Source: Acidimicrobiia bacterium (GTDB lineage Bacteria > Acidobacteriota > Vicinamibacteria > Vicinamibacterales > UBA2999). Taken from it: a DNA stretch of 64,000 nucleotides. The stretch lies in assembly GCA_016871375.1 (NCBI GenBank), contig VFYY01000002.1:1749-65748 (forward strand), given 5' to 3'. Under the pieces are notes generated by a model, which was given only the letters and a program-made list of their open reading frames with translations, was not told where the DNA came from and did no database searches. A program made the translations under genes and the position numbers. Positions within the stretch are counted from its first letter, which is position 1. The number at the start of each line of letters is the position of its first letter. Positions 6,343 to 61,100 of this stretch are shown here, in pieces.

Positions 6343-7602
6343 ATGCGCCCGATGAAGATGCTTTCCGTGACCGTTGCGATCGTCGCTGCCGTGGTCGTTC
6401 TACGGGCGACGCTTGCGTCGCCCCTACAGGCGCAGGCCGGCGCACGCGTCTTCGAGGGGGCGCGTCTCATCGTCGGCGACGGCAGCGCGCCGATCGAAGA
6501 CTCCGCGTTCGTCGTGCAGGGGAACCGCATCACCGCCGTCGGCCGGCGGGGCCAGGTGAACGCGCCGGCGGGCGCGCAGCGCGTCGATCTCACCGGCAAG
6601 ACCGTGATGCCGGCGATCGTCGACACGCACACGCACCTCAGCCAGGCGAAGGATGCGCTCAGCAGCGACCTGCGGCGGCGTCCGTACTACGGCGTCAGCG
6701 CGGCGATGAGCCTCGGCCAGGATCTGGCGGACGCGATGTCGATGCGCGGGCAGCCGCAGCCCGGCCTGGCGCGCTTCTTCAGCGCCGGCCTGGGCATCAC
6801 CGGGCTGGAGAAGGGGCGCATGACGTCGGCCATCCAGGTCACCACGCCCGCTGAAGCGCGGGCGGCCGTGCAGAAGGTGGCGGCGACCAAGCCCGACGTC
6901 ATCAAGATCTGGATCGACGACCGCATGGGCACGGTCGTCAAGCTCGCTCCGGATCTGTATGCCGCGGTGATCGACGAGGCGCATCGCAGCAAGCTCCGCG
7001 TCACGGCGCACATCTTCGCGCTCGAGGACGCCAAGGGCGCCACCAAGGCGGGCCTCGACGCCTACGCCCACGTGCCGGCGCGCGACAAGGACGTGGACGA
7101 CGAGTTCATGGCCATTCTCAAGGCGCGCAACCCGTCCACGGTGTGGCTGGTGCCGAACCTGCCCAACCGCGGCGTGCGCATGGATCTGAGCTGGCTGAAG
7201 GACAGCCTGCCCGCCGCGGAGCTGCAGAAGCTCGAGATGGGCAACACCGACAACGCCCAGGCGCAGCAGGCGTTCGGCATCCAGGCGCGCAACCTGAAGA
7301 AGATGAGCGACGCCGGCGTGCGCGTCATCCTCGGCACCGACGGCAACACGGCCTGGCAGCCGCACGTGGAGATGGCGGACATGGTGGCGTCCGGGCTGAC
7401 GCCGATGCAGGTGATCGTCGCCTCGACGCGCAACGGCGCCGAGTTCCTGCGCATGGCCGACGCGGGCACGATCGCCGCCGACAAGAGCGCGGACTTCATC
7501 GTGCTCGACGCCAACCCGCTCGACGACATCACGAACACGCGCAAGATCAATCGCGTGTTCCTGCGCGGCGACGAGGTCAATCGCGCGGTCTCGACACAGT
7601 AG
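6343..7602 (+). CDS. Amidohydrolase family protein, secreted (paralog 1 of 3)
   Basis: Signal peptide MRPMKMLSVTVAIVAAVVVLRA. Metal-binding motif VMPAIVDTHTHL and C-terminal ADFIVLDANPLDDI typical of metal-dependent amidohydrolases. The stop TAG lies inside a REP hairpin. Confidence 0.8.
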   Translation: MRPMKMLSVTVAIVAAVVVLRATLASPLQAQAGARVFEGARLIVGDGSAPIEDSAFVVQGNRITAVGRRGQVNAPAGAQRVDLTGKTVMPAIVDTHTHLSQAKDALSSDLRRRPYYGVSAAMSLGQDLADAMSMRGQPQPGLARFFSAGLGITGLEKGRMTSAIQVTTPAEARAAVQKVAATKPDVIKIWIDDRMGTVVKLAPDLYAAVIDEAHRSKLRVTAHIFALEDAKGATKAGLDAYAHVPARDKDVDDEFMAILKARNPSTVWLVPNLPNRGVRMDLSWLKDSLPAAELQKLEMGNTDNAQAQQAFGIQARNLKKMSDAGVRVILGTDGNTAWQPHVEMADMVASGLTPMQVIVASTRNGAEFLRMADAGTIAADKSADFIVLDANPLDDITNTRKINRVFLRGDEVNRAVSTQ

Positions 7603-7624: not shown

Positions 7625-8841
7625 CACCGGATCGGCTGTCCGACGATGAGGGCCCGGTTGGCTCCCGCCCGCGGGCGGAACTTCTGGGCCCTCCCGTTGT
7701 TCACCTCGGCGAGATAGAGATTTCCCTCCGGGTCCACGCTCATGCCGTGGACGTTCCACATCGCGCCGGGCCACTCGCCCTGGCTGCCCCACGAGTAGAG
7801 ATAGTGGCCGTCGATGTCGTACTTGACGATCTTCGACGTCGAGTTGTCGGCGACCCACAGGCTGCGATCCGCGGACAGGTAGAGCACCTGCGGCGTTGAC
7901 GGGCGGCCGGTGCCGAACTGATCGAGGAACGTGCCGTTCTCGTCGAACACCTGGATGCGCGCGCTGGAACGGTCGGTCACGTACACGCGCCGGCTGCGTG
8001 GATCGACCTGCACGCCGTGCACCGCGTCGAAGGTGCCCGGCCGCGTGTCGTTCGGCGGCGTGCCCTTCTGCCCCCATGCCCTCAGGAACGTGCCGTCCTT
8101 GTCGAACTTCACCACGCGCGTGTTGGCGTAGCCGTCGGAGACAAAGAGCGTGGAGTCGGGCAGCCACGCCAGGAACGTCGGCCTGTTGAAGTGTGTCGCG
8201 TCTTCGCCGGGCACGCCGCGGACGCCGAGCGTCTGCACCAGCGTCTTGCCGTCGTTGGTGAACTTGTAGACGGCGTGCTGCCGGTCGTCCACGACCCAGA
8301 CGTGCTTCTGCGGGTCGTACGGGTTGATCGCCACCGAATGCGGACGCCGGAAGATCGAGTCCCACTGGGTCCACGACTCGACGATGTTGCCCGCCGCGTC
8401 GACGACGACGAGGCAGTGCTCCCAGCGCGCGTCCACGCCGAGGGTCCCCTTCCAGCCGTTCCAGCCGTCGCTGCCCGAGTTGCCCGGGCTGCTGAGGGGA
8501 CCGACCGACGCGTTGCGGAACGGCGTCTGCGAGACGGGGAAGGAGAGACTGGGCCCGACGCCGGGGTACGGCACTTCCGCCGGCCGCTCGAGCAGCGGCA
8601 GCTCGCCGCGCTGCAGCACGTACACGCGGTTGGCGCTTTCCGCGAAGATCCCCTGCACGGCGCCCCACGTCCACGTCTCGTGGCCGGCGAGCTGCGACAG
8701 CGGCCTGGGCCAGTTCGCCACCACCTCGTACGGCCCGGTCTGATCCTGGCCGCCCTTCTGGCCGGGCACAGCCGCGAACTGCGCGTGGACGGCGACGCCG
8801 GCGGCGACGGCGAAGGCGATGGCCAGGACGTGTCTCATCAT
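7624..8841 (-). CDS. NHL-repeat beta-propeller protein, secreted (peptidylglycine-amidating-lyase-like fold)
   Basis: Start is placed at ATGATG (8841) giving signal peptide MMRHVLAIAFAVAAGVAVHA. The upstream 196 codons of the track ORF are Arg/Gly-rich junk. NHL-like repeats are present (YVTDRSSARIQVFDENGTFLDQFG, LYLAEVNNGRAQKF). ATGA overlap with the stop of the upstream DsbA gene. Confidence 0.7.
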   Translation of the reverse strand: MMRHVLAIAFAVAAGVAVHAQFAAVPGQKGGQDQTGPYEVVANWPRPLSQLAGHETWTWGAVQGIFAESANRVYVLQRGELPLLERPAEVPYPGVGPSLSFPVSQTPFRNASVGPLSSPGNSGSDGWNGWKGTLGVDARWEHCLVVVDAAGNIVESWTQWDSIFRRPHSVAINPYDPQKHVWVVDDRQHAVYKFTNDGKTLVQTLGVRGVPGEDATHFNRPTFLAWLPDSTLFVSDGYANTRVVKFDKDGTFLRAWGQKGTPPNDTRPGTFDAVHGVQVDPRSRRVYVTDRSSARIQVFDENGTFLDQFGTGRPSTPQVLYLSADRSLWVADNSTSKIVKYDIDGHYLYSWGSQGEWPGAMWNVHGMSVDPEGNLYLAEVNNGRAQKFRPRAGANRALIVGQPIR

Positions 8842-9464
8842 CGAGCTCTCCTCAGCGCCTCGGCGAAGATGTCGGCCGACTGCGCGCCTGAAATGGCGAA
8901 GCGGTTGTCGATCACGAAGAACGGGACGCCGCTCACCTGGAGCGCGGCGGCGTCCTGCCGATCGACCCGCACCGCGTCGGCGAAGCCGTCGCCCGCGAGC
9001 ATCCGCGCCGTCTCCTCGCGGTCGAGTCCCGCATCCACCGCGAGCGCCGTCAGCGACTCGTGGTCGAAGATCGACCGCTGTTCCGTGAAGTAGGCGCGAT
9101 AGAGCCGCTCGAGCGCGGCATCCTCGAGCCCCTTGCCCCGGGCGAGGTGAATCACGCGGTGGGCGTCGAACGTGTTGCCGGTGCTGGTGCCCGCCAGATG
9201 GTAGTCGAGTCCTTCGGCAGCCGCCACCTGCTGCATCCGCGCGTCCATGGCGTCGGCCTGCGGCGCCGACCAGCCGTACTTCGACATCAGGTGCGCGCGC
9301 CGGCTCGACGCCCCGTCCTTCGGCGCGCCGGGGTTGAGCTGGAACGCGCGGTGCACCACCTCGACGGCGGGCGGACCGTCGAGCAGCGCGATCGCCCGCT
9401 CGAACCGCCGCTTGCCGATGTAGCACCACGGACAGACGATGTCGGACCAGACGTCGACGCGCAA
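8838..9464 (-). CDS. DsbA-family thiol oxidoreductase (FrnE-like)
   Basis: CPWC active site in VDVWSDIVCPWCYIGKRRFE. Start is placed at the in-frame TTG at 9464, which has GAGGA 6 nt upstream. The track ORF start at 9653 adds 63 non-protein-like residues. Confidence 0.78.
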   Translation of the reverse strand: MRVDVWSDIVCPWCYIGKRRFERAIALLDGPPAVEVVHRAFQLNPGAPKDGASSRRAHLMSKYGWSAPQADAMDARMQQVAAAEGLDYHLAGTSTGNTFDAHRVIHLARGKGLEDAALERLYRAYFTEQRSIFDHESLTALAVDAGLDREETARMLAGDGFADAVRVDRQDAAALQVSGVPFFVIDNRFAISGAQSADIFAEALRRAR

Positions 9465-9528
9465 CGGTATCCTCGTGCGGGGGTAGGTACAGTCTACGAA
9501 CGAACCCCCGGAAGCAGGACCGTTGACG

Positions 9529-10194
9529 TCAGCGCACCTCGAACTCGACGGCGTGAGCGGCCGTGCCCGCGACCGTCCGCAGCGTGTGGCCGCCAGCCGG
9601 TGTGTAGATCCATCGGCCGGGCTCCTGTATCCGGAACGGCTCGGTTCCACCATCCCCCTGGTTCTCGACGCTGCCGCTGACGAGCACCGTGACCGTCGGG
9701 CGCTGGTGGTTGTGGTCGCTTTCCGGCGTGGCCGCGTCGAGCTTGACGTCGTACAGGATGAACGCCCGCGTCTGCTGCGCGATCGTCGTGCCCGCCGCCT
9801 TCATCGGTGTGAGCGTGGACCAGCCGCTCTCGCGCTCGTTGGTCACGGCGATGAGGCGGTAGGGGATCTTGTCCAGGTTCTGGATCGTGTGCGCGCCCGG
9901 CGTCCCCGTGTACTGGGTGGCGTTGAGCGACCCGATGGCGCGCTCGCGCGGCGGACCCCACTCCGCGCCCGGCGTCCTCACGCGGGTCTGCGCGTTCATG
10001 ATGGCCACGGTCGCGACGTCCCGCTCGTGGGCGTGCTCGTGTCCCATCTCGCCGGCGGGGATGTTCACGTCGAGAATCCTGAACCAGTTCGTGTACAGCA
10101 CCTGCCGATGATGCGGATCTTTATAGACGGGCGGCGCCTGCGCCGACGCCACGCACGACCCGAGTACGAACACGATAGTCAGCAGTCGCTTCAT
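9529..10194 (-). CDS. Secreted hypothetical protein, cupin-like
   Basis: Signal peptide MKRLLTIVFVLGSCVASAQA. His-rich metal-site-like segment GEMGHEHAHERD. All-beta composition. It starts 2 nt after the stop of the upstream amidohydrolase. The function call is weak. Confidence 0.55.
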   Translation of the reverse strand: MKRLLTIVFVLGSCVASAQAPPVYKDPHHRQVLYTNWFRILDVNIPAGEMGHEHAHERDVATVAIMNAQTRVRTPGAEWGPPRERAIGSLNATQYTGTPGAHTIQNLDKIPYRLIAVTNERESGWSTLTPMKAAGTTIAQQTRAFILYDVKLDAATPESDHNHQRPTVTVLVSGSVENQGDGGTEPFRIQEPGRWIYTPAGGHTLRTVAGTAAHAVEFEVR

Positions 10195-10196
10195 GG

Positions 10197-11414
10197 TTAG
10201 CTTCCTTGACGCGTGTCCACCACGACGTCGCCGCCCTTGATGACGACGCGGGCGTCGAGCAGGTGCCAGTAGCCCTCGAGCGGGTTGCCGCCGAGCAGCA
10301 CGATATCCGCCAGCTTGCCGGTCTCGAGCGTGCCGAGATCCTTCTGTCGATCGATGAACGCCGCGGAGTTCGGTCCCATCACCCTGATGATGTCGATCGG
10401 CGAGAACATCAGGTTCAGCGTGCGGAGCTCGTGGGCGAGCCCGTGACGCGGCAGGTAGCCGGTGTCGGTGCCGTATCCGTAGACCACGCCGTTGTCGAAG
10501 AGCGTCCGCGCGTTCACGGCCTTGTAGCCCGCCTCGCGCCCGCGGCCTTCGCCGTCGATGATGGCGTCAGGCCAGGGCTTGCCGTCGCGGAACGTGCCGA
10601 CGTTGTTCTGGTTGAAGACGCCGAAGACCGGCACGCCGAACCCCGCGCAGGAGAGCACCTCGACGCCCGCCGCCGCCACGGCCTTCGCGTCGGCGTCCGA
10701 CAGCCAGCCGAAGTGCGGCGTGTGCACCAGCTTCTGCGCGCCGACCTTCACGGCCGCCAGCATCGCCTGCGGGCTCACGGCGTGCACCATGGTCTGCAGG
10801 TTGTGCTTCTTGCCTTCCTCCACGACGACACGGAGGATCTCCACCTCCTCGGCGGTCGCCTGGGGCGAGATGCTGGCTTTGATGTAGTCGATCTTCGCGT
10901 TGGCGAGCGCCTGGACCTGCGCGCGCGCGGCGTCGGCGGTCTTGAATCGCCCGGGGTCCGCGCGGCCCGAGGTGAGGATGCGCGGGCCCTTGATCTTCCC
11001 GGAGTCGATCATGTCGCGGAGCTGCGCGCCGCTTGGCGGCGCGCCGCCGCCCTCCAGCAGCGTCGTGTAGCCGGCCTCGAGGAACTCCCGCATGTGGGCG
11101 GCCGCGCGCGTGTCGAAGTACTCGCCGGCGTTGCCCGGGATGACGTGGCGGTGGCCGTCGATGAAGCCGGGCACCGCGGTCATGCCGCGGCCGTCGATGA
11201 CGCGGGCGCCCCGCGCGGCGCCGGCCGCGGCGCCCACCGACGCGATGCGCCCGCCCGTGACGACGATCGAGCCGGACTCGATGACCTGACCGGTACCGGT
11301 GATGACGCGAACGTTGTTGATCACGAGGTCCTGGGCCGCGAGCGTCTGCGCGGCGCCCAGCATCAGCGCCAGGACGAGGAAGGAAACCGCGAACCGTCTT
11401 TTCATGGCGGCCAT
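10197..11414 (-). CDS. Amidohydrolase family protein, secreted (paralog 2 of 3)
   Basis: Signal peptide MAAMKRRFAVSFLVLALMLGAAQTLAA. Motifs MTAVPGFIDGHRHV and LADIVLLGGNPL. Confidence 0.8.
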   Translation of the reverse strand: MAAMKRRFAVSFLVLALMLGAAQTLAAQDLVINNVRVITGTGQVIESGSIVVTGGRIASVGAAAGAARGARVIDGRGMTAVPGFIDGHRHVIPGNAGEYFDTRAAAHMREFLEAGYTTLLEGGGAPPSGAQLRDMIDSGKIKGPRILTSGRADPGRFKTADAARAQVQALANAKIDYIKASISPQATAEEVEILRVVVEEGKKHNLQTMVHAVSPQAMLAAVKVGAQKLVHTPHFGWLSDADAKAVAAAGVEVLSCAGFGVPVFGVFNQNNVGTFRDGKPWPDAIIDGEGRGREAGYKAVNARTLFDNGVVYGYGTDTGYLPRHGLAHELRTLNLMFSPIDIIRVMGPNSAAFIDRQKDLGTLETGKLADIVLLGGNPLEGYWHLLDARVVIKGGDVVVDTRQGS

Positions 11415-11504
11415 ATCTTAGCTGAGGAGCCTGGAGCTCGGCATCGTCGCCGGGTTCCGAGCTCGTCGGGCCGCGGTGCACAGCGTGCACCGGGAGTCAG
11501 GTCC

Positions 11505-30076: not shown

Positions 30077-30100
30077 GTAGGGGCGCGGCATGCCGCGCCC
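30077..30100. repeat. REP-A hairpin GTAG+GGGCGCGGCATGCCGCGCCC
   Basis: Read directly, 5 nt after the leuD stop. Confidence 0.85.
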
Positions 30101-47312: not shown

Positions 47313-47313
47313 C

Positions 47314-47368
47314 GGGCGATGCATGCATCGCCCCTGCCATGACGTAGGGGCGACGCATGCGTCGCCCG
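47314..47368. repeat. REP-A doublet in inverted orientation (REPIN-like)
   Basis: GGGCGATGCATGCATCGCCCCTGC is a minus-orientation unit with head GCAG. It is followed by CATGAC and then GTAGGGGCGACGCATGCGTCGCCC, a plus-orientation unit. Confidence 0.85.
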
Positions 47369-47392
47369 CACATCTAGTACACTGTCAGCCCG

Positions 47393-58676: not shown

Positions 58677-59153
58677 GTGGAACGGCTGTGGTCGCCGTGG
58701 CGGCTTGAATATGTGACGAGCGCCGATCGCACGACCGGCTGCATCTTCTGCCTCAAAGAGGAAAAGGCCCTCATCGTTCATGAGGGCCTTACTTCGTACG
58801 TCATCCTCAACCTGTACCCCTATAACAACGGTCACCTCATGGTGGTCCCGTACCGTCACGTCGGCTCGCTCGCTGCGCTCACGCCAGAGGAGCTGCAGGA
58901 GATTGGCGTGCTCACGCAGCGGTGCGAGGCGGCGATCGCCGAAGCGTACGACGCGCACGGAATGAACATCGGCATCAATCTCGGCAAGCCGGCGGGCGCC
59001 GGCGTCCTCGATCATCTGCACGTGCACGTCGTGCCGCGCTGGAACGGCGACACCAACTTCATCACCGTCATCGGCGAGATGCGCGTGCTGCCGGAAGAGC
59101 TCGGTGCGTCCGCCGCACGGCTGAGGCCCATCTTCGAGCGCCTGTCGCGGTAG
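58677..59153 (+). CDS. HIT family protein (Ap4A phosphorylase/GalT-like branch)
   Basis: LWSPWRLEYV..CIFC..YVILNLYPYNNGHLMVVP..histidine triad HLHVHVVPRW. The stop TAG lies in a REP-A head. Confidence 0.85.
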   Translation: MERLWSPWRLEYVTSADRTTGCIFCLKEEKALIVHEGLTSYVILNLYPYNNGHLMVVPYRHVGSLAALTPEELQEIGVLTQRCEAAIAEAYDAHGMNIGINLGKPAGAGVLDHLHVHVVPRWNGDTNFITVIGEMRVLPEELGASAARLRPIFERLSR

Positions 59154-59186: not shown

Positions 59187-60194
59187 ATGGACTTCGATCT
59201 GTCCGACGTCCAGGCCGCCTGGCGCGACAAGGGCGCGGCGTTGGGCCGCGACCTCGCCGCGGATCCGGCGGCTGCCGGCGCGATCATGGGCGCCGCGCGT
59301 GTCGGCCTGCTCGATCCTGCGGCCGACCTGCTCGCCGTCACGGTCGCCACCGAGGCGATGGCCTTCGAATCGTCCGCGGCCGCGGCGATTTTCGGGCTGC
59401 ATACCGGGACGGCGCTCGCGGTTGCGGGCGACGACCGCTTCACGTCGTTCTTTCGCGGCGAAGCCGTGGCCGCGGTCGGCCTGTCGTCGGACGACGTGCC
59501 GGTGGAGAGCGGCGGGACCGTCTCGGGGCGCGCAGCCTGGGTGGCGCCGATCACTGAGCGAGGCGTGGTCGTGGTCGGGCCGCGTCCCTCGGCAAGCTCG
59601 GGACGCCCTGAGCGTGTCGAAGGGAGGCGCGGTGAGGATCGGGCGGCGTACGCGGTGTCCTTCGAGGCGCCCGGCGTCAGCATCGAGCCCGTGGAGACCG
59701 CCGCGCTGCAGGGGCTCGTCTGCGGTCACGTGACGTTCACCGCCGCCCGTTGCACGCCCCTCGGCGCCACCATCCCAATCATGACGCGCATCCGCGTGCT
59801 GATGGCCGCCGCCGGCCTCGGCATCGGGAGGCGCGCGCTTCGTGAGGCGCTGACCGCCGCGCGCGCCGCGCATACCGCCGCCGCAGGCGAGCAGACAGTG
59901 CAGGGACTGCTGGCGGATGCGGCCACCGAGCTCGACGCGGCCATGCTCATGACCTGGAAGGCGGCGGCCGCCGCCACGCCGTCCCTGGCGGATGCGTCGC
60001 TCGCCAAGCTCGCCGTCACCGCCGCGGCGCAGCGGGCCGTCGAGCGCGCCACGCAGGTTGTCGGCGCGGACAGCTTCCAGCGTGGCCACATCATCGAGCG
60101 CCTGGCGCAGGACGTCCGCGCACTGGAGCTCTTTGCCGGCCGCACCGAGGCGCTGCGCGCTGCCGCCGCCGAAGACCTGCTTCCTCACCGGTAG
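59187..60194 (+). CDS. Acyl-CoA dehydrogenase-like protein (divergent)
   Basis: 335 aa. The C-terminal helical domain pattern (AKLAVTAAAQRAVERATQVVGADSFQRGHIIERLAQDVRALELFAG) is ACAD-like. The N-terminal and middle parts are degenerate and contain a repeat-derived insert. Confidence 0.6.
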   Translation: MDFDLSDVQAAWRDKGAALGRDLAADPAAAGAIMGAARVGLLDPAADLLAVTVATEAMAFESSAAAAIFGLHTGTALAVAGDDRFTSFFRGEAVAAVGLSSDDVPVESGGTVSGRAAWVAPITERGVVVVGPRPSASSGRPERVEGRRGEDRAAYAVSFEAPGVSIEPVETAALQGLVCGHVTFTAARCTPLGATIPIMTRIRVLMAAAGLGIGRRALREALTAARAAHTAAAGEQTVQGLLADAATELDAAMLMTWKAAAAATPSLADASLAKLAVTAAAQRAVERATQVVGADSFQRGHIIERLAQDVRALELFAGRTEALRAAAAEDLLPHR

Positions 60195-61051
60195 GGGCGA
60201 GGTATTGCCTCGCCCGTAACGAAGCACCTGGCATCACGTCTGCGTTCGCCCCGTGAATGCAGGTCGATCCGGATTTCCCCGTGCGTCGGCGCGTCCGCCT
60301 GCCACAACGCGTCTATTCGGAACCCGGCGCCTTCTTCGTCACGATTTGCACGTGGCGGCGCGCCTGTGTGCTCGGAGAGATCGTCGATTACACCGTGCGT
60401 CCGGGTGCCTACGGGGCGGTGGTGGACGCCTGCTGGCGGGAGATTCCGGCGCACTTCGCCGGCGTGCAGCTCGATGCCTGCGTCGTCATGCCGAATCACC
60501 TTCACGGTATCGTCAAGATCGTCGGCGGCGGTTTGCGGGCGACGCATGCGTCGCCCCTACGACGCATGCGTGGGTCGCTCCTACCCGTGCCGATGCTGGA
60601 ACGCGGGTCGATGCTACCCGCAGCACCCCTGCGGCGGCCGCCGTCTCTCGGGACCATCGTCGGGTCGTTCAAATCGGCTGTGACCCGGCGTGTTCACGAC
60701 GGATTGCGGGCGACGCCTGCGTCGCCCCTACCACGCATAGATACGCCGGCCCGACCGCGCAGGCCGCCTCCGTTCTGGCAGCGCGGGTACTACGACCATG
60801 TCATTCGCGATGAGGCCGCGCTGCTGCGCCTGCGGCAGTACATTCTGGATAACCCCGCGCGATGGGCAGAGGATCCTGACAACGTCACGCGGTAGGGGCG
60901 AGGCATTGCCTCGCCCGTAAGGAAACGGCCTGTTTACAAAGCGATCCAGAGGTGTACGGGCGACGCCTGCGTCGCCCCTACCACGCATAGATACGCCGGG
61001 GCGGAGGATCCCGACAACGTCACGCGGTAGGGGCGAGGCATTGCCTCGCCC
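60191..61051. mobile_element. REPtron-like locus: RAYT gene bracketed by REP-A hairpins, with downstream partial duplication
   Basis: REP-A(+) units at 60191, 60892 and 61027. REP-A(-) units at 60537, 60708 (both inside the ORF) and 60958. Segment 60871-60955 is repeated at 61006-61090, and segment 60705-60749 is repeated at 60955-60999. Confidence 0.8.
60257..60895 (+). CDS. REP-associated tyrosine transposase (RAYT; IS200/IS605 TnpA-like Y1 HUH enzyme)
   Basis: HUH motif VVMPNHLHGIV. Catalytic Tyr region WQRGYYDHVIRDEAALLRLRQYILDNPARW. LGTIVGSFKSAVTRRV helix. 212 aa. Confidence 0.82.
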   Translation: MQVDPDFPVRRRVRLPQRVYSEPGAFFVTICTWRRACVLGEIVDYTVRPGAYGAVVDACWREIPAHFAGVQLDACVVMPNHLHGIVKIVGGGLRATHASPLRRMRGSLLPVPMLERGSMLPAAPLRRPPSLGTIVGSFKSAVTRRVHDGLRATPASPLPRIDTPARPRRPPPFWQRGYYDHVIRDEAALLRLRQYILDNPARWAEDPDNVTR

Positions 61052-61100
61052 GTAAGGAAACGGCCTGTTTACAAAGCGGTCCAGAGGTGGACGCAGCGGG

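What the first reader, a model, noticed from the sequence alone, without database searches (positions are those of the whole stretch)
60191..61090. RAYT gene invaded by its own REP hairpins and followed by a deleted pseudo-copy of its 3' end
The RAYT ORF (HUH NHLHGIV, catalytic YYDHVIR) is bracketed by REP-A(+) hairpins at 60191 and 60892.

Unusually, two REP-A units in minus orientation lie inside the reading frame:
- 60537-60560, GGGCGACGCATGCGTCGCCCCTAC, followed by a degenerate half copy.
- 60708-60731.
They are translated as GLRATHASPL and GLRATPASPL, between the HUH motif and the catalytic Tyr.

Downstream, segment Y (60705-60749) and segment X (60871-60955, which includes the stop and a REP) recur as Y' (60955-60999) and X' (61006-61090). 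The roughly 120 bp encoding the catalytic Tyr are missing between Y' and X'.

This could be a footprint of RAYT activity on its own locus, or it could mean that the REP sequence derives from, or is homogenised with, the transposase gene.
Basis: partly seen in the sequence, partly recalled or inferred. Interest (0 to 1): 0.7.

Follow-up and report, generated by a model that had tools for sequence, protein, structure and literature searches.

The report
REP-transposase gene carrying its own REPs
This is an intact REP-associated tyrosine transposase (RAYT) gene with copies of its own target hairpin written in-frame inside it, which is real but is already the published hallmark of this RAYT subclass, so it is a new member of a known kind.

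Summary
ORF 60257-60895 (212 aa) is an intact HUH/Tyr RAYT from an Acidimicrobiia MAG. GTAG-footed REP hairpins bracket it at 60191 and 60892. Two minus-oriented REPs lie in-frame inside it (60533-60560 and 60704-60731). A 139-bp pseudo-copy of its 3' end follows, lacking 115 bp.

The feature is not unusual for this family. Quentin et al. 2018 (PMC6006769) describe in-frame REP insertions between the HuH and Tyr motifs as the unique hallmark of TnpA-REP subclass 2.4 (Bertels RAYT group 4).

I reproduced this in 72 homologous genes from many phyla. 83% carry a perfect hairpin of at least 8 bp right after HUH, against about 6% of control windows. The typical form is GTAGGGGC...GCCCCTAC, with compensated inner stems, read in either of its two open frames.

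Three details are specific to this locus:
- The second REP site (alphaC-beta4 loop) is shared only with the three closest relatives.
- The pseudo-copy is identical in three assemblies and absent from a syntenic orthologue. It is a microhomology-joined tandem duplication plus a deletion.

Verdict: new member of a known kind, modest interest.

The parts
60191..60218 (+). Upstream flanking REP, GTAG foot plus hairpin (GTAGGGGCGAGGTATTGCCTCGCCCGTA). Its TAG is the stop codon of the upstream acyl-CoA-dehydrogenase-like ORF 59187..60194.
   Evidence: D3; dG -14 kcal/mol, z -4.9; Pfam of neighbour
60257..60895 (+). Intact RAYT / TnpA-REP gene, 212 aa. It is the only copy in the window.
   Evidence: NF047646, E 1e-15; Foldseek top hit 4er8_A
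60491..60508 (+). HUH motif, PNHLHG (aa 79-84).
   Evidence: (invariant P79 N80 H81 H83 G84)
60533..60560 (-). Intragenic REP site 1. On the minus strand it reads GTAGGGGCGACGCATGCGTCGCCCGCAA. It is translated as (L)RATHASPL and lies in the beta3-alphaC loop at the family-wide REP position.
60561..60584 (-). Degenerate half copy of the REP (GACGCATGCGTGGGTCGCTCCTAC), translated as RRMRGSLL. It can form an alternative 13-bp hairpin with the 3' arm of site 1.
   Evidence: (I9); comparable REP-arm expansions in L006 and L040 and a decayed half copy at the same place in L083
60704..60731 (-). Intragenic REP site 2. On the minus strand it reads GTAGGGGCGACGCAGGCGTCGCCCGCAA. It is translated as (L)RATPASPL and lies in the alphaC-beta4 loop. 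This is a lineage-specific second insertion.
60707..60749 (+). Segment Y: the site-2 REP plus an 18-nt tail (CACGCATAGATACGCCGG). It is 43/43 identical to Y'.
   Evidence: (D2)
60750..60863 (+). Stretch present in the gene but missing from the pseudo-copy. It encodes aa 165-202, including WQRGYYDHVIR and the catalytic Y195.
60773..60808 (+). FWQRGYYDHVIR. This is the homologue of the E. coli TnpA-REP W94/Q95/E100/H101/R104 stretch that recognises the GTAG foot. It is not the catalytic Tyr.
   Evidence: alignment to 4er8; PMC6006769
60836..60856 (+). QYILDNP, the Y motif. Y195 (60839-60841) aligns with the catalytic Y115 of 4ER8, and N199 aligns with N119.
60864..60958 (+). Segment X: the last 32 nt of the ORF, the downstream REP (60892-60919, whose TAG is the RAYT stop codon) and 39 nt of spacer.
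   Evidence: (D1, D3)
60954..60999 (+). Y', a copy of Y. Its REP has nearly two feet (GTACGGGCGACGCCTGCGTCGCCCCTAC). The left junction with X has CG microhomology, 1 nt from the base of the hairpin.
60999..61093 (+). X', a 96% copy of X that includes a third plus-oriented REP at 61027-61054. Y' and X' together form the deleted pseudo-copy of the gene's 3' end.
   Evidence: tblastn fragment

Best explanation
The ORF is an intact, single-copy RAYT (TnpA-REP, a HUH/Y1 single-strand DNA endonuclease). It belongs to the clade described as subclass 2.4 by Quentin et al. 2018, which equals RAYT group 4 of Bertels et al. 2017. It sits in an Acidimicrobiia genome at a locus kept in synteny with a related genome.

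Its presumed substrates are the genome's GTAG-footed REP hairpins (GTAG + GGGCG-stem-loop-CGCCC). These flank the gene and are scattered through the window.

As is typical for this subclass, REP DNA also lies in-frame inside the gene:
- Site 1 is in the beta3-alphaC loop just after HUH. This is the family-wide position.
- Site 2 is in the alphaC-beta4 loop. It is restricted to this gene and its two or three nearest relatives.

Such insertions survive for three reasons. (i) A GTAG...CTAC REP has two stop-free reading frames (VGA..PL and RG..APT); the third contains TAG. (ii) The loops are disordered surface extensions away from the active site. (iii) The copies are kept hairpin-competent by exchange with extragenic REPs or by selection on the DNA (inferred).

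The 139 bp downstream (Y'X') is a local rearrangement. A 250-bp tandem duplication of 60709-60958 was joined at a CG microhomology at the foot of the site-2 hairpin. A 115-bp internal deletion with G/GG microhomology accompanied or followed it. The most likely cause is hairpin-promoted replication slippage or template switching (inferred, not shown).
For: Identity of the protein:
- NCBIfam REP_Tyr_transpos gives E 1.1e-15.
- A profile of homologues hits E. coli TnpA-REP 4er8, aligning HUH and Y115 with Y195.
- The AF2 model has pLDDT 79.7 with a core above 90. The Foldseek top hit is 4er8_A (E 1.4e-5, TMt 0.60), followed by ISDra2 and IS608 TnpA.
- All 21 invariant columns of the 28-sequence alignment are by construction residues of this protein, and they include HUH, WQR, Y195 and N199/P200.

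Published precedent:
- PMC6006769 states that REPs inserted within tnpAREP, in frame and between HuH and Y, are a unique and predominant feature of subclass 2.4. It also describes 'double foot' REPs and long REPs with 3 G-C pairs at the stem bottom.

Reproduced here:
- 60 of 72 linkers have a perfect hairpin of at least 8 bp, and 29 of 72 have one of at least 14 bp. Random windows give 6.1% and 0.7%; the N-terminal halves of the same genes give 4.2% and 1.4%.
- Of 25 double-foot REPs, 14 are read in frame 1, 11 in frame 3 and none in the TAG frame.
- The four inner stem pairs vary only by double (compensated) changes.

The internal REP is the genome's own type:
- Density of the internal type is 0.113 per kb in its own locus against 0.0015 per kb in other loci. 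30 of 51 loci hold extra copies, 23 of them within 1 kb.
- The window has extragenic copies of the site-1 type at 6427, 47344 and 59150.

Loops:
- Residues 91-130 and 151-170 have pLDDT 46-68 and no secondary structure.
- Pfam Y1_Tnp becomes detectable only after both peptides are removed.

Site 2 is lineage-specific:
- The alphaC-to-W spacing is 20 aa in 102 of 114 homologues. It is longer only in P0001, P0002 and P0003.
- The syntenic orthologue L083 has a decayed REP there, 18/23 identical.

Duplication:
- It is identical in three assemblies and absent from L083, where the next gene starts 20 nt after the stop.
Against: - The protein scores below the curated cut-offs of both NCBIfam NF047646 (57.7 vs 80 bits) and Pfam PF01797 (no hit; 22 vs 23 bits after trimming).
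- Its HuH (NHLH) and Y motif (YILDNP) differ by one residue each from the published subclass 2.4 consensus (NH[IFV]H, YIxNNP). Assignment to 2.4 rests on features, not on the authors' own HMMs or tree.
- No activity data exist for any subclass 2.4 member.
- The REPs that flank the gene have a different inner stem (GAGGCATTGCCTC) from the internal ones.
- Site 2 lies near the region that, by homology, contacts the REP, so the protein could be impaired.
- The order and mechanism of the duplication and deletion are inferred from junction sequences only.
- The three assemblies may derive from the same or related samples.
Confidence: 0.85

Rival explanations
1. The intragenic REPs are not passively tolerated. 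They are a maintained cis element: a 'seed' or master copy that guarantees co-inheritance of the transposase and its substrate, or a site through which the protein or the mRNA/ssDNA hairpin autoregulates the gene.
For: - A perfect hairpin is present at the same loop in 83% of homologues from many phyla.
- The site-1 REP is 24/24 nt identical between the window and the syntenic orthologue, although third-codon positions are near saturation at 39% identity.
- The internal type matches the locus's extragenic type with 77-fold enrichment.
- Stretches of 43-49 nt at 100% identity link intragenic and flanking copies in WIN, L009 and L063.
Against: - The same facts fit frequent gene conversion or re-insertion from abundant extragenic REPs.
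- 12 of 72 genes lack a perfect hairpin of at least 8 bp, and several close homologues (P0069, P0117) have no insert.
- The position and spacing of the hairpin after HUH vary from 11 to 125 nt.
- Site 2 decayed in L083.
- No functional data exist.
Confidence: 0.2
2. The 'REP-encoded' peptides are a conserved protein linker (VGATHASPL motif) selected at the amino-acid level, and the DNA palindrome is incidental.
For: VGATHASPL-like peptides recur after HUH in most of the 28 aligned homologues and in 58 of 114 of the top hits.
Against: - The same DNA palindrome is read in two different frames, for example GTAGGGGCACGGCATGCCGTGCCCCTAC as VGARHAVPL in L003/L029 and as RGTACRAPT in L011/L055.
- Inner stems differ between loci with full compensation.
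- Rare codons CAT and CTA are used in a 68% GC gene exactly where the palindrome needs them.
- The segment has low pLDDT.
- Identical sequences occur extragenically.
Confidence: 0.03
3. The Y'X' pseudo-copy, and possibly site 2, are direct footprints of RAYT cleavage and rejoining at its own locus.
For: - The left breakpoint of the duplication lies 1 nt from the base of the site-2 hairpin.
- The copied unit is the REP plus an 18-nt tail. In L009 the REP plus a 19-nt tail is shared between the gene and its flank.
- HUH enzymes of the IS200/IS605 type cut at fixed distances from hairpins (established knowledge, not tested here).
Against: - The Y'/X' junction is not at a REP, and X' carries 32 nt of coding sequence, so this is a segmental copy rather than a REP-bounded unit.
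- The 18-nt tail occurs only in Y and Y' in the window.
- No comparable 3'-end pseudo-copies were found in the other loci scanned (72 genes in all).
- Junction microhomologies of 1-2 nt fit slippage.
- No CT dinucleotide lies at the junctions.
Confidence: 0.1
4. The duplication and/or the intragenic REPs are assembly artefacts (collapse or expansion of short repeats).
For: The source is short-read metagenome assemblies, and the repeats are 28-135 nt long.
Against: - Three assemblies (the NCBI MAG window, an ENA megahit contig and a JGI contig) are 100% identical over 1.1 kb or more, including Y'X'.
- The ORF stays open through both REPs.
- X and X' differ at 4 positions.
- Intragenic REPs are seen in dozens of independent genomes, including complete chromosomes.
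Confidence: 0.02

Closest known systems
TnpA-REP subclass 2.4 (Quentin, Siguier, Chandler & Fichant 2018, BMC Genomics 19:475, PMC6006769), equal to RAYT group 4 (Bertels et al. 2017, PMC5581495)
   Same: - About 200 aa, with no C-terminal tail domain.
- NHxH, WQ and YIxxNP motifs.
- A variable beta3-alphaC insertion made of in-frame REP DNA.
- Flanking long GTAG REPs with 3 G-C pairs at the stem foot, and 'double foot' REPs.
- A patchy distribution across phyla.
   Different: - The host class (Acidimicrobiia) is not among the phyla named in the parts of the paper I read.
- HuH is NHLH and the Y motif is YILDNP, each one residue off the consensus.
- There is a second REP in the alphaC-beta4 loop, where Table 1 lists no insertion for subclass 2.4.
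- The internal REPs here have lost the plus-strand foot, making them single-foot and minus-oriented.
- A deleted tandem pseudo-copy of the 3' end follows the gene.
E. coli TnpA-REP / RAYT (subclass 2.2, PDB 4ER8; Messing et al. 2012, PMC3479197; Ton-Hoang et al. 2012, PMC3333891)
   Same: - HUH plus a single catalytic Tyr on alphaD.
- The W-Q...[ED]-H..R stretch for the GTAG foot.
- The same fold (Foldseek top hit).
- GTAG-footed REP hairpins flanking the gene.
   Different: - Only about 16% identity.
- E. coli REPs have bulged imperfect stems and no intragenic copies.
- The E. coli protein has an inhibitory C-terminal tail (E161) that is absent here.
- The metal ligand H123 is W203 here.
IS200/IS605 TnpA (IS608, ISDra2)
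   Same: - HUH/Y1 fold.
- Recognition of subterminal DNA hairpins on single-stranded DNA.
   Different: - These are mobile, multicopy insertion sequences.
- Their motifs are DH[VI]H and Y[IV]ENQ.
- Their hairpins mark the element ends and are not dispersed REPs.
- No hairpins lie inside the tnpA coding sequence.
In-frame palindromic repeats in other genes (GTAG/CGTC REPs inside genes, Di Nocera et al. 2013, PMC3733652; Rickettsia RPEs cited there)
   Same: Short palindromic repeats are tolerated in-frame in protein loops.
   Different: Those cases are scattered in unrelated genes. Here the host gene is the REP's own cognate enzyme, and the insertion site is shared by the whole subclass.

Membership tests
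RAYT / TnpA-REP (HUH Y1 endonuclease) | HUH metal-binding motif on beta3 | tested here: met
   PNHLHG at aa 79-84. The residues are invariant in the 28-sequence alignment and align to H59-M60-H61 of 4er8.
RAYT / TnpA-REP (HUH Y1 endonuclease) | Single catalytic Tyr on alphaD (Y115 in E. coli) followed by N..P | tested here: met
   Y195 in QYILDNP aligns with Y115 of DYIYINP in 4er8. Y115 is stated to be catalytic in PMC3479197.
RAYT / TnpA-REP (HUH Y1 endonuclease) | TnpA-REP / IS200-like fold | tested here: met
   AF2 model with pLDDT 79.7. Foldseek top hit 4er8_A, prob 1.00, E 1.4e-5, TMt 0.60, followed by ISDra2 and IS608 TnpA.
RAYT / TnpA-REP (HUH Y1 endonuclease) | Curated profile thresholds (NCBIfam NF047646 cut-off 80 bits; Pfam PF01797 cut-off 23 bits) | tested here: not met
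   57.7 bits in two stretches for NF047646. No Pfam hit at E<=0.1. 22.0 bits after both REP peptides are removed. The shortfall is explained by the inserts and by divergence; close homologues pass PF01797.
RAYT / TnpA-REP (HUH Y1 endonuclease) | GT[AG]G-footed REP hairpins within +/-1 kb of the gene and dispersed in the genome | tested here: met
   REPs at 60191, 60892 and 61027, plus 59150. Dispersed copies at 6427, 7599, 24296, 30077, 47337 and 47344. The genome-wide census is limited to 64 kb.
RAYT / TnpA-REP (HUH Y1 endonuclease) | Single copy, vertically inherited (domesticated) | tested here: inconclusive
   One copy in the window. There is a syntenic orthologue at 53% identity in L083. 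The whole genome was not available.
RAYT / TnpA-REP (HUH Y1 endonuclease) | Binds and cleaves single-stranded REP DNA | not testable with these tools
   Biochemistry is needed.
TnpA-REP subclass 2.4 / RAYT group 4 | Key motifs: HuH NH[IFV]H, W motif WQ, Y motif YIxNNP (Table 1, PMC6006769) | tested here: inconclusive
   The window has NHLH, WQ and YILDNP. WQ matches exactly; the other two differ by one residue each. The homologue consensus here is NH[VIL]H and YIxxNP.
TnpA-REP subclass 2.4 / RAYT group 4 | Variable-length beta3-alphaC insertion made of in-frame REP sequence | tested here: met
   Site 1 at 60533-60584. HuH-to-Y distance: H83 to Y195 is 112 aa, against the published median of 88 for subclass 2.4 and 58-67 for most subclasses.
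TnpA-REP subclass 2.4 / RAYT group 4 | REP type: long REP with three G-C pairs at the stem foot and/or 'double foot' GT[AG]G...C[TC]AC | tested here: met
   GTAG|GGGCG...CGCCC in the window. Perfect double-foot REPs occur in the orthologue L083 and in 25 homologous loci. Y' is nearly double-footed.
TnpA-REP subclass 2.4 / RAYT group 4 | No conserved C-terminal extension domain; median length about 194 aa | tested here: met
   212 aa. The protein ends 12 aa after the YILDNP motif.
TnpA-REP subclass 2.4 / RAYT group 4 | Placement by the authors' HMM profiles or phylogeny | not tested

The most novel reading that the evidence does not exclude
The intragenic REP is a selected part of the system rather than tolerated junk. 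The RAYT gene carries a hairpin-competent copy of its own substrate, kept identical to the extragenic population by ongoing exchange. In this reading enzyme and target are inherited as one unit and can reseed a REP family, or the enzyme or hairpin feeds back on its own gene. The Y = Y' identity here, and the 49-nt identities between gene and flank in L009 and L063, would be traces of that exchange.
Probability: 0.2. Interest if true: 0.6.

Novelty: new member of a known kind. Interest (0 to 1): 0.3.

Why it matters
As it stands, this matters little. It adds an Acidimicrobiia example to a published hallmark of RAYT subclass 2.4. It also shows why such genes end up annotated as 'hypothetical': the REP peptides break the Pfam and NCBIfam matches.

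There are three modest additions:
- A second tolerated REP site in the alphaC-beta4 loop.
- Quantitative evidence from about 70 genomes that the intragenic hairpin is conserved as DNA. It is read in two frames, its stems are compensated, and it is identical between orthologues whose synonymous sites are near saturation.
- Evidence that it matches each genome's own REP type.

If the intragenic copy turned out to be functional (a seed, a co-inheritance device or an autoregulator), it would bear on the open question of how RAYT and REP specificities stay matched over long times.

Tried and rejected
- Pfam on the native protein gave no family at E<=0.1. PDB phmmer with the single sequence gave nothing. 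Both worked only with a profile or after trimming.
- A literature search for the peptides and DNA words (GATHASP, VGATHASPL, GDACVAP, GTAGGGGC and others) returned only irrelevant primer hits.
- PMC8266576 does not mention intragenic REPs.
- DNA for the closest homologue P0002 (66% identity, shares site 2) could not be fetched because the sample file is too large. Its site-2 hairpin is therefore inferred from the peptide only.
- I looked for recurrent 3'-end pseudo-copies downstream of the other 71 homologous genes and found none. The search turned up only tandem paralogues (L060), REP arrays (L067) and identities of REP plus tail (L009, L063).
- I looked for the 18-nt tail of Y elsewhere in the window. 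It occurs only in Y and Y', so Y' is a local copy and not a dispersed REP-plus-tail unit.
- I considered CT-dinucleotide cleavage of the E. coli type at the duplication junctions. No CT is present there (reading).
- I rejected the protein-level linker hypothesis and the assembly-artefact hypothesis (see the rival explanations).
- The covariation count was made on hairpins pre-selected as perfect. Its 'percent paired' figure is therefore circular; only the diversity of compensated inner pairs is informative.
Full report
**1. What is in the sequence**

The window has 68% GC. ORF 60257..60895 on the plus strand encodes 212 aa. It contains PNHLHG at aa 79-84, FWQRGYYDHVIR at aa 173-184 and QYILDNP at aa 194-200.

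Plus-oriented REP hairpins with a 5' GTAG foot start at 60191, 60892 and 61027. Minus-oriented ones start at 60560 and 60731, both inside the ORF, and at 60981. The flanking REPs, site 1 and Y' fold as DNA hairpins of -12.6 to -20.4 kcal/mol with z-scores of -3.4 to -4.9. Site 2 gives -10.4 kcal/mol and z -1.9.

The two intragenic REPs are translated as (G)LRATHASPL and (G)LRATPASPL. The first is followed by a degenerate half copy at 60561-60584.

Downstream, 60957-60999 is 43/43 identical to 60707-60749. Also, 60999-61093 is 91/95 identical to 60864-60958. The second unit lacks 60750-60863.

The core GTAGGGGCGA with up to one mismatch occurs 16 times in the window against 4.2 expected; 0 of 100 shuffles reach that count.

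Two other assemblies of the same locus, an ENA megahit contig and a JGI contig, are 100% identical over at least 2.4 kb, including the duplication.

**2. What the protein is**

The exact protein is in NCBI as 'hypothetical protein FJW14_00680 [Acidimicrobiia bacterium]'.

- Pfam finds nothing at E<=0.1.
- NCBIfam finds REP_Tyr_transpos at E 1.1e-15, but below its cut-off (57.7 against 80 bits).
- After both REP-encoded peptides are removed, Pfam Y1_Tnp appears at 22 bits.
- A profile of 28 homologues hits E. coli TnpA-REP (4er8). It aligns HUH, and it aligns 'vWQRnYyehviRdeaelerireYiaenP' with 'IWQPRFWEHAIRNTKDYRHHVDYIYINP'.
- In 4ER8 the catalytic Tyr is Y115, acting with H59/H61, N119 and H123 (PMC3479197).

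The catalytic residue here is therefore Y195 in QYILDNP.

An AlphaFold2 model has pLDDT 79.7 with a core above 90. Its best PDB match is 4er8_A (E 1.4e-5, TMt 0.60), followed by ISDra2 and IS608 transposases. Residues 91-130 and 151-170, which are the two REP-encoded stretches and their surroundings, are low-confidence coils.

Only one copy of the gene is in the window.

**3. Is the 'invasion' special?**

It is not. In an alignment of 28 homologues from many phyla, the site-1 peptide falls on a family-wide segment with consensus VGATHASPL, directly after HUH. That peptide is the frame-1 translation of the 28-nt perfect palindrome GTAGGGGCGACGCATGCGTCGCCCCTAC. Frame 3 gives RGDACVAPT, and frame 2 contains a TAG stop.

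I fetched 80 homologous loci from named genomes: Chloroflexota, Nitrospirota, Cyanobacteria, Desulfuromonas, Planctomycetota, Nitrosomonas, Zixibacteria, Bacillota and others. The results were as follows.

- **Hairpin frequency.** In 72 genes with HUH and WQ motifs in one frame, 60 (83%) have a perfect hairpin of at least 8 bp between them, and 29 (40%) have one of at least 14 bp. Random same-length windows of the same loci give 6.1% and 0.7%. The N-terminal part of the same genes gives 4.2% and 1.4%.
- **Form.** The typical element is GTAGGGGC-(variable, fully compensated inner stem)-GCCCCTAC.
- **Reading frame.** The same DNA is read in different frames in different genomes. GTAGGGGCACGGCATGCCGTGCCCCTAC is VGARHAVPL in L003 and L029 but RGTACRAPT in L011 and L055. 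Of 25 double-foot REPs, 14 are in frame 1, 11 in frame 3 and none in the TAG frame.
- **Paired REPs.** Eight loci carry an inverted pair of single-foot REPs instead of one double-foot REP.
- **Own type.** The internal REP type is the locus's own type: 0.113 copies per kb in the same locus against 0.0015 per kb in loci with another type. 30 of 51 loci hold extra copies, 23 of them within 1 kb.

So the hairpin is a DNA-level feature of the whole clade and not a conserved peptide.

**4. It is published**

[quoted passage not shown]'

They also describe the 'double foot' REP, the long REP with three G-C pairs at the stem foot, the variable beta3-alphaC insertion, and a model in which that region is a peripheral extension.

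[quoted passage not shown] The window protein fits all of these except for one residue in each of two motifs (NHLH, YILDNP).

No other paper in the library mentions the feature.

**5. What is specific to this locus**

(a) A second REP site.
- The spacing from the alphaC Lys to the WQ Trp is 20 aa in 102 of 114 homologues. It is longer only in this protein and its two nearest relatives, P0002 (66% identity; peptide VRATHASPLP) and P0003 (53% identity).
- None of the 70 genome loci has a REP-like hairpin there.
- The P0003 locus, L083, is syntenic with the window. The window order is HU, HIT, acyl-CoA dehydrogenase, RAYT, small membrane protein, MFS; L083 has three extra genes between the dehydrogenase and the RAYT.
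- L083 has a perfect double-foot REP at site 1, the same REP on both sides of the gene, at least five more copies in 10.6 kb, and only a decayed REP (18/23 identical) at site 2.
- The site-2 insertion is therefore old. In the window lineage it is hairpin-competent and 100% identical to Y'.

(b) Evidence for homogenisation or DNA-level constraint.
- Between the window and L083, third-codon positions of the core are 39% identical.
- The site-1 REP is 24/24 nt identical.

(c) The pseudo-copy.
- Alignment shows that unit 2 equals unit 1 (60707-60958) minus 115 bp.
- The X/Y' junction has CG microhomology, 1 nt from the base of the site-2 hairpin.
- The internal junction has G/GG microhomology.
- L083 has only 20 nt between the RAYT stop and the next gene, so the duplication is lineage-specific.
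- The other loci scanned showed no analogous 3'-end pseudo-copy.

The simplest reading is a hairpin-promoted tandem duplication followed by a deletion, or a single complex template switch. A RAYT-catalysed origin is possible but has no specific support.

**6. Mechanism (shown versus inferred)**

Shown:
- The protein has the HUH/Y1 architecture and fold.
- GTAG-footed REPs flank the gene and are dispersed in the window.
- Intragenic REPs of the genome's own type sit in two predicted disordered loops.
- The family-wide DNA palindrome is used in two reading frames.

Inferred:
- The protein binds the GTAG foot through WQ..DH..R and cuts single-stranded REP DNA with Y195.
- Insertions persist because only stop-free frames in permissive loops survive.
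- Internal copies are refreshed by exchange with extragenic copies.
- The pseudo-copy arose by replication slippage.

**7. Verdict**

The finding is a correct and careful reading of the sequence. Its central 'unusual' feature is the documented hallmark of RAYT subclass 2.4 / group 4. This is a new member of a known kind, with a second insertion site and a local rearrangement as minor novelties. Interest is 0.3.

The most novel reading still open, at about 20% probability, is that the intragenic REP is a maintained cis element: a co-inherited substrate seed or an autoregulatory site.

Noticed in passing
window 7599-7602, 30077-30080, 47344-47347, 59150-59153, 60191-60194, 60892-60895: The TAG inside the REP's GTAG foot serves as the stop codon of the ORF ending there. 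This holds for three consecutive genes: the HIT-family gene (58677..59153), the acyl-CoA-dehydrogenase-like gene (59187..60194) and the RAYT. REPs here abut or overlap gene 3' ends very precisely.
   Followed up: partly
window 47313-47371: A head-to-head pair of REPs with feet 6 nt apart: a minus-strand REP from 47337 (GCAGGGGCGATGCATGCATCGCCCGT) and a plus-strand REP from 47344 (GTAGGGGCGACGCATGCGTCGCCCGCA). This is a REPIN/BIME-like dimer with different inner stems.
   Followed up: no
window 6427, 7599, 24296, 30077, 47337, 47344, 59150, 60191, 60892: The window holds at least five REP inner-stem variants sharing GTAGGGGCG...CGCCCGT: GACGCA(A/T)GCGTC, GGGGCACGCCCC, GCGGCATGCCGC, GATGCATGCATC and GAGGCATTGCCTC. 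The REPs flanking the RAYT are of a different variant from the ones inside it.
   Followed up: partly
L009 9879-9927 and 10290-10338; L063 163-211 and 648-696: In a Desulfuromonas MAG (L009), 49 nt are 100% identical between the intragenic site and an inverted copy about 60 nt upstream of the start. The stretch is a double-foot REP plus the 19-nt tail ATGTCAAATCAACCCCGCA. A third REP at 8676 has a related tail, so the REP unit extends beyond the hairpin. L063 shows a similar 49-nt identity between gene and flank.
   Followed up: partly
L067 about 9600-11500 (Deferrisomatales MAG): The RAYT homologue is embedded in arrays of at least 25 copies of GGGGCGACGCATGCGTCGCCCC on both sides. This is the same REP core as in the window.
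   Followed up: no
L060 about 9250-10500 (Anaerolineaceae MAG): Two RAYT paralogues lie in tandem (HUH at 9480 and 10223), sharing 100%-identical 132-nt and 98%-identical 115-nt stretches. The locus holds two different intragenic REPs (GCGGTTCGCGAACCGC read as RGGSRTAPT; GCGCACGGCCGTGCGC read as VGAHGRAPL).
   Followed up: no
L001, L014, L015, L027, L038, L049, L062, L063 (linker after HUH): Instead of one double-foot palindrome, these genes carry an inverted pair of two different single-foot REPs in frame, which is REPIN-like. One example is VGATPRGRP...GQAQGPAPT.
   Followed up: partly
window 60257-60895; P0005, P0010, P0017, P0071: Two annotation side-effects. The window protein is deposited as 'hypothetical' and escapes Pfam because of the REP peptides. 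Several homologues have over-extended N-termini reading 'RGDACVAP', which is the upstream REP translated in frame 3.
   Followed up: partly
window 60530-60588 (minus strand): At site 1 the minimum-energy fold is not the REP hairpin itself. It is an alternative 13-bp hairpin between the degenerate half copy and one REP arm, and its loop holds most of the GTAG foot (AGGG). Two mutually exclusive structures are therefore possible.
   Followed up: no
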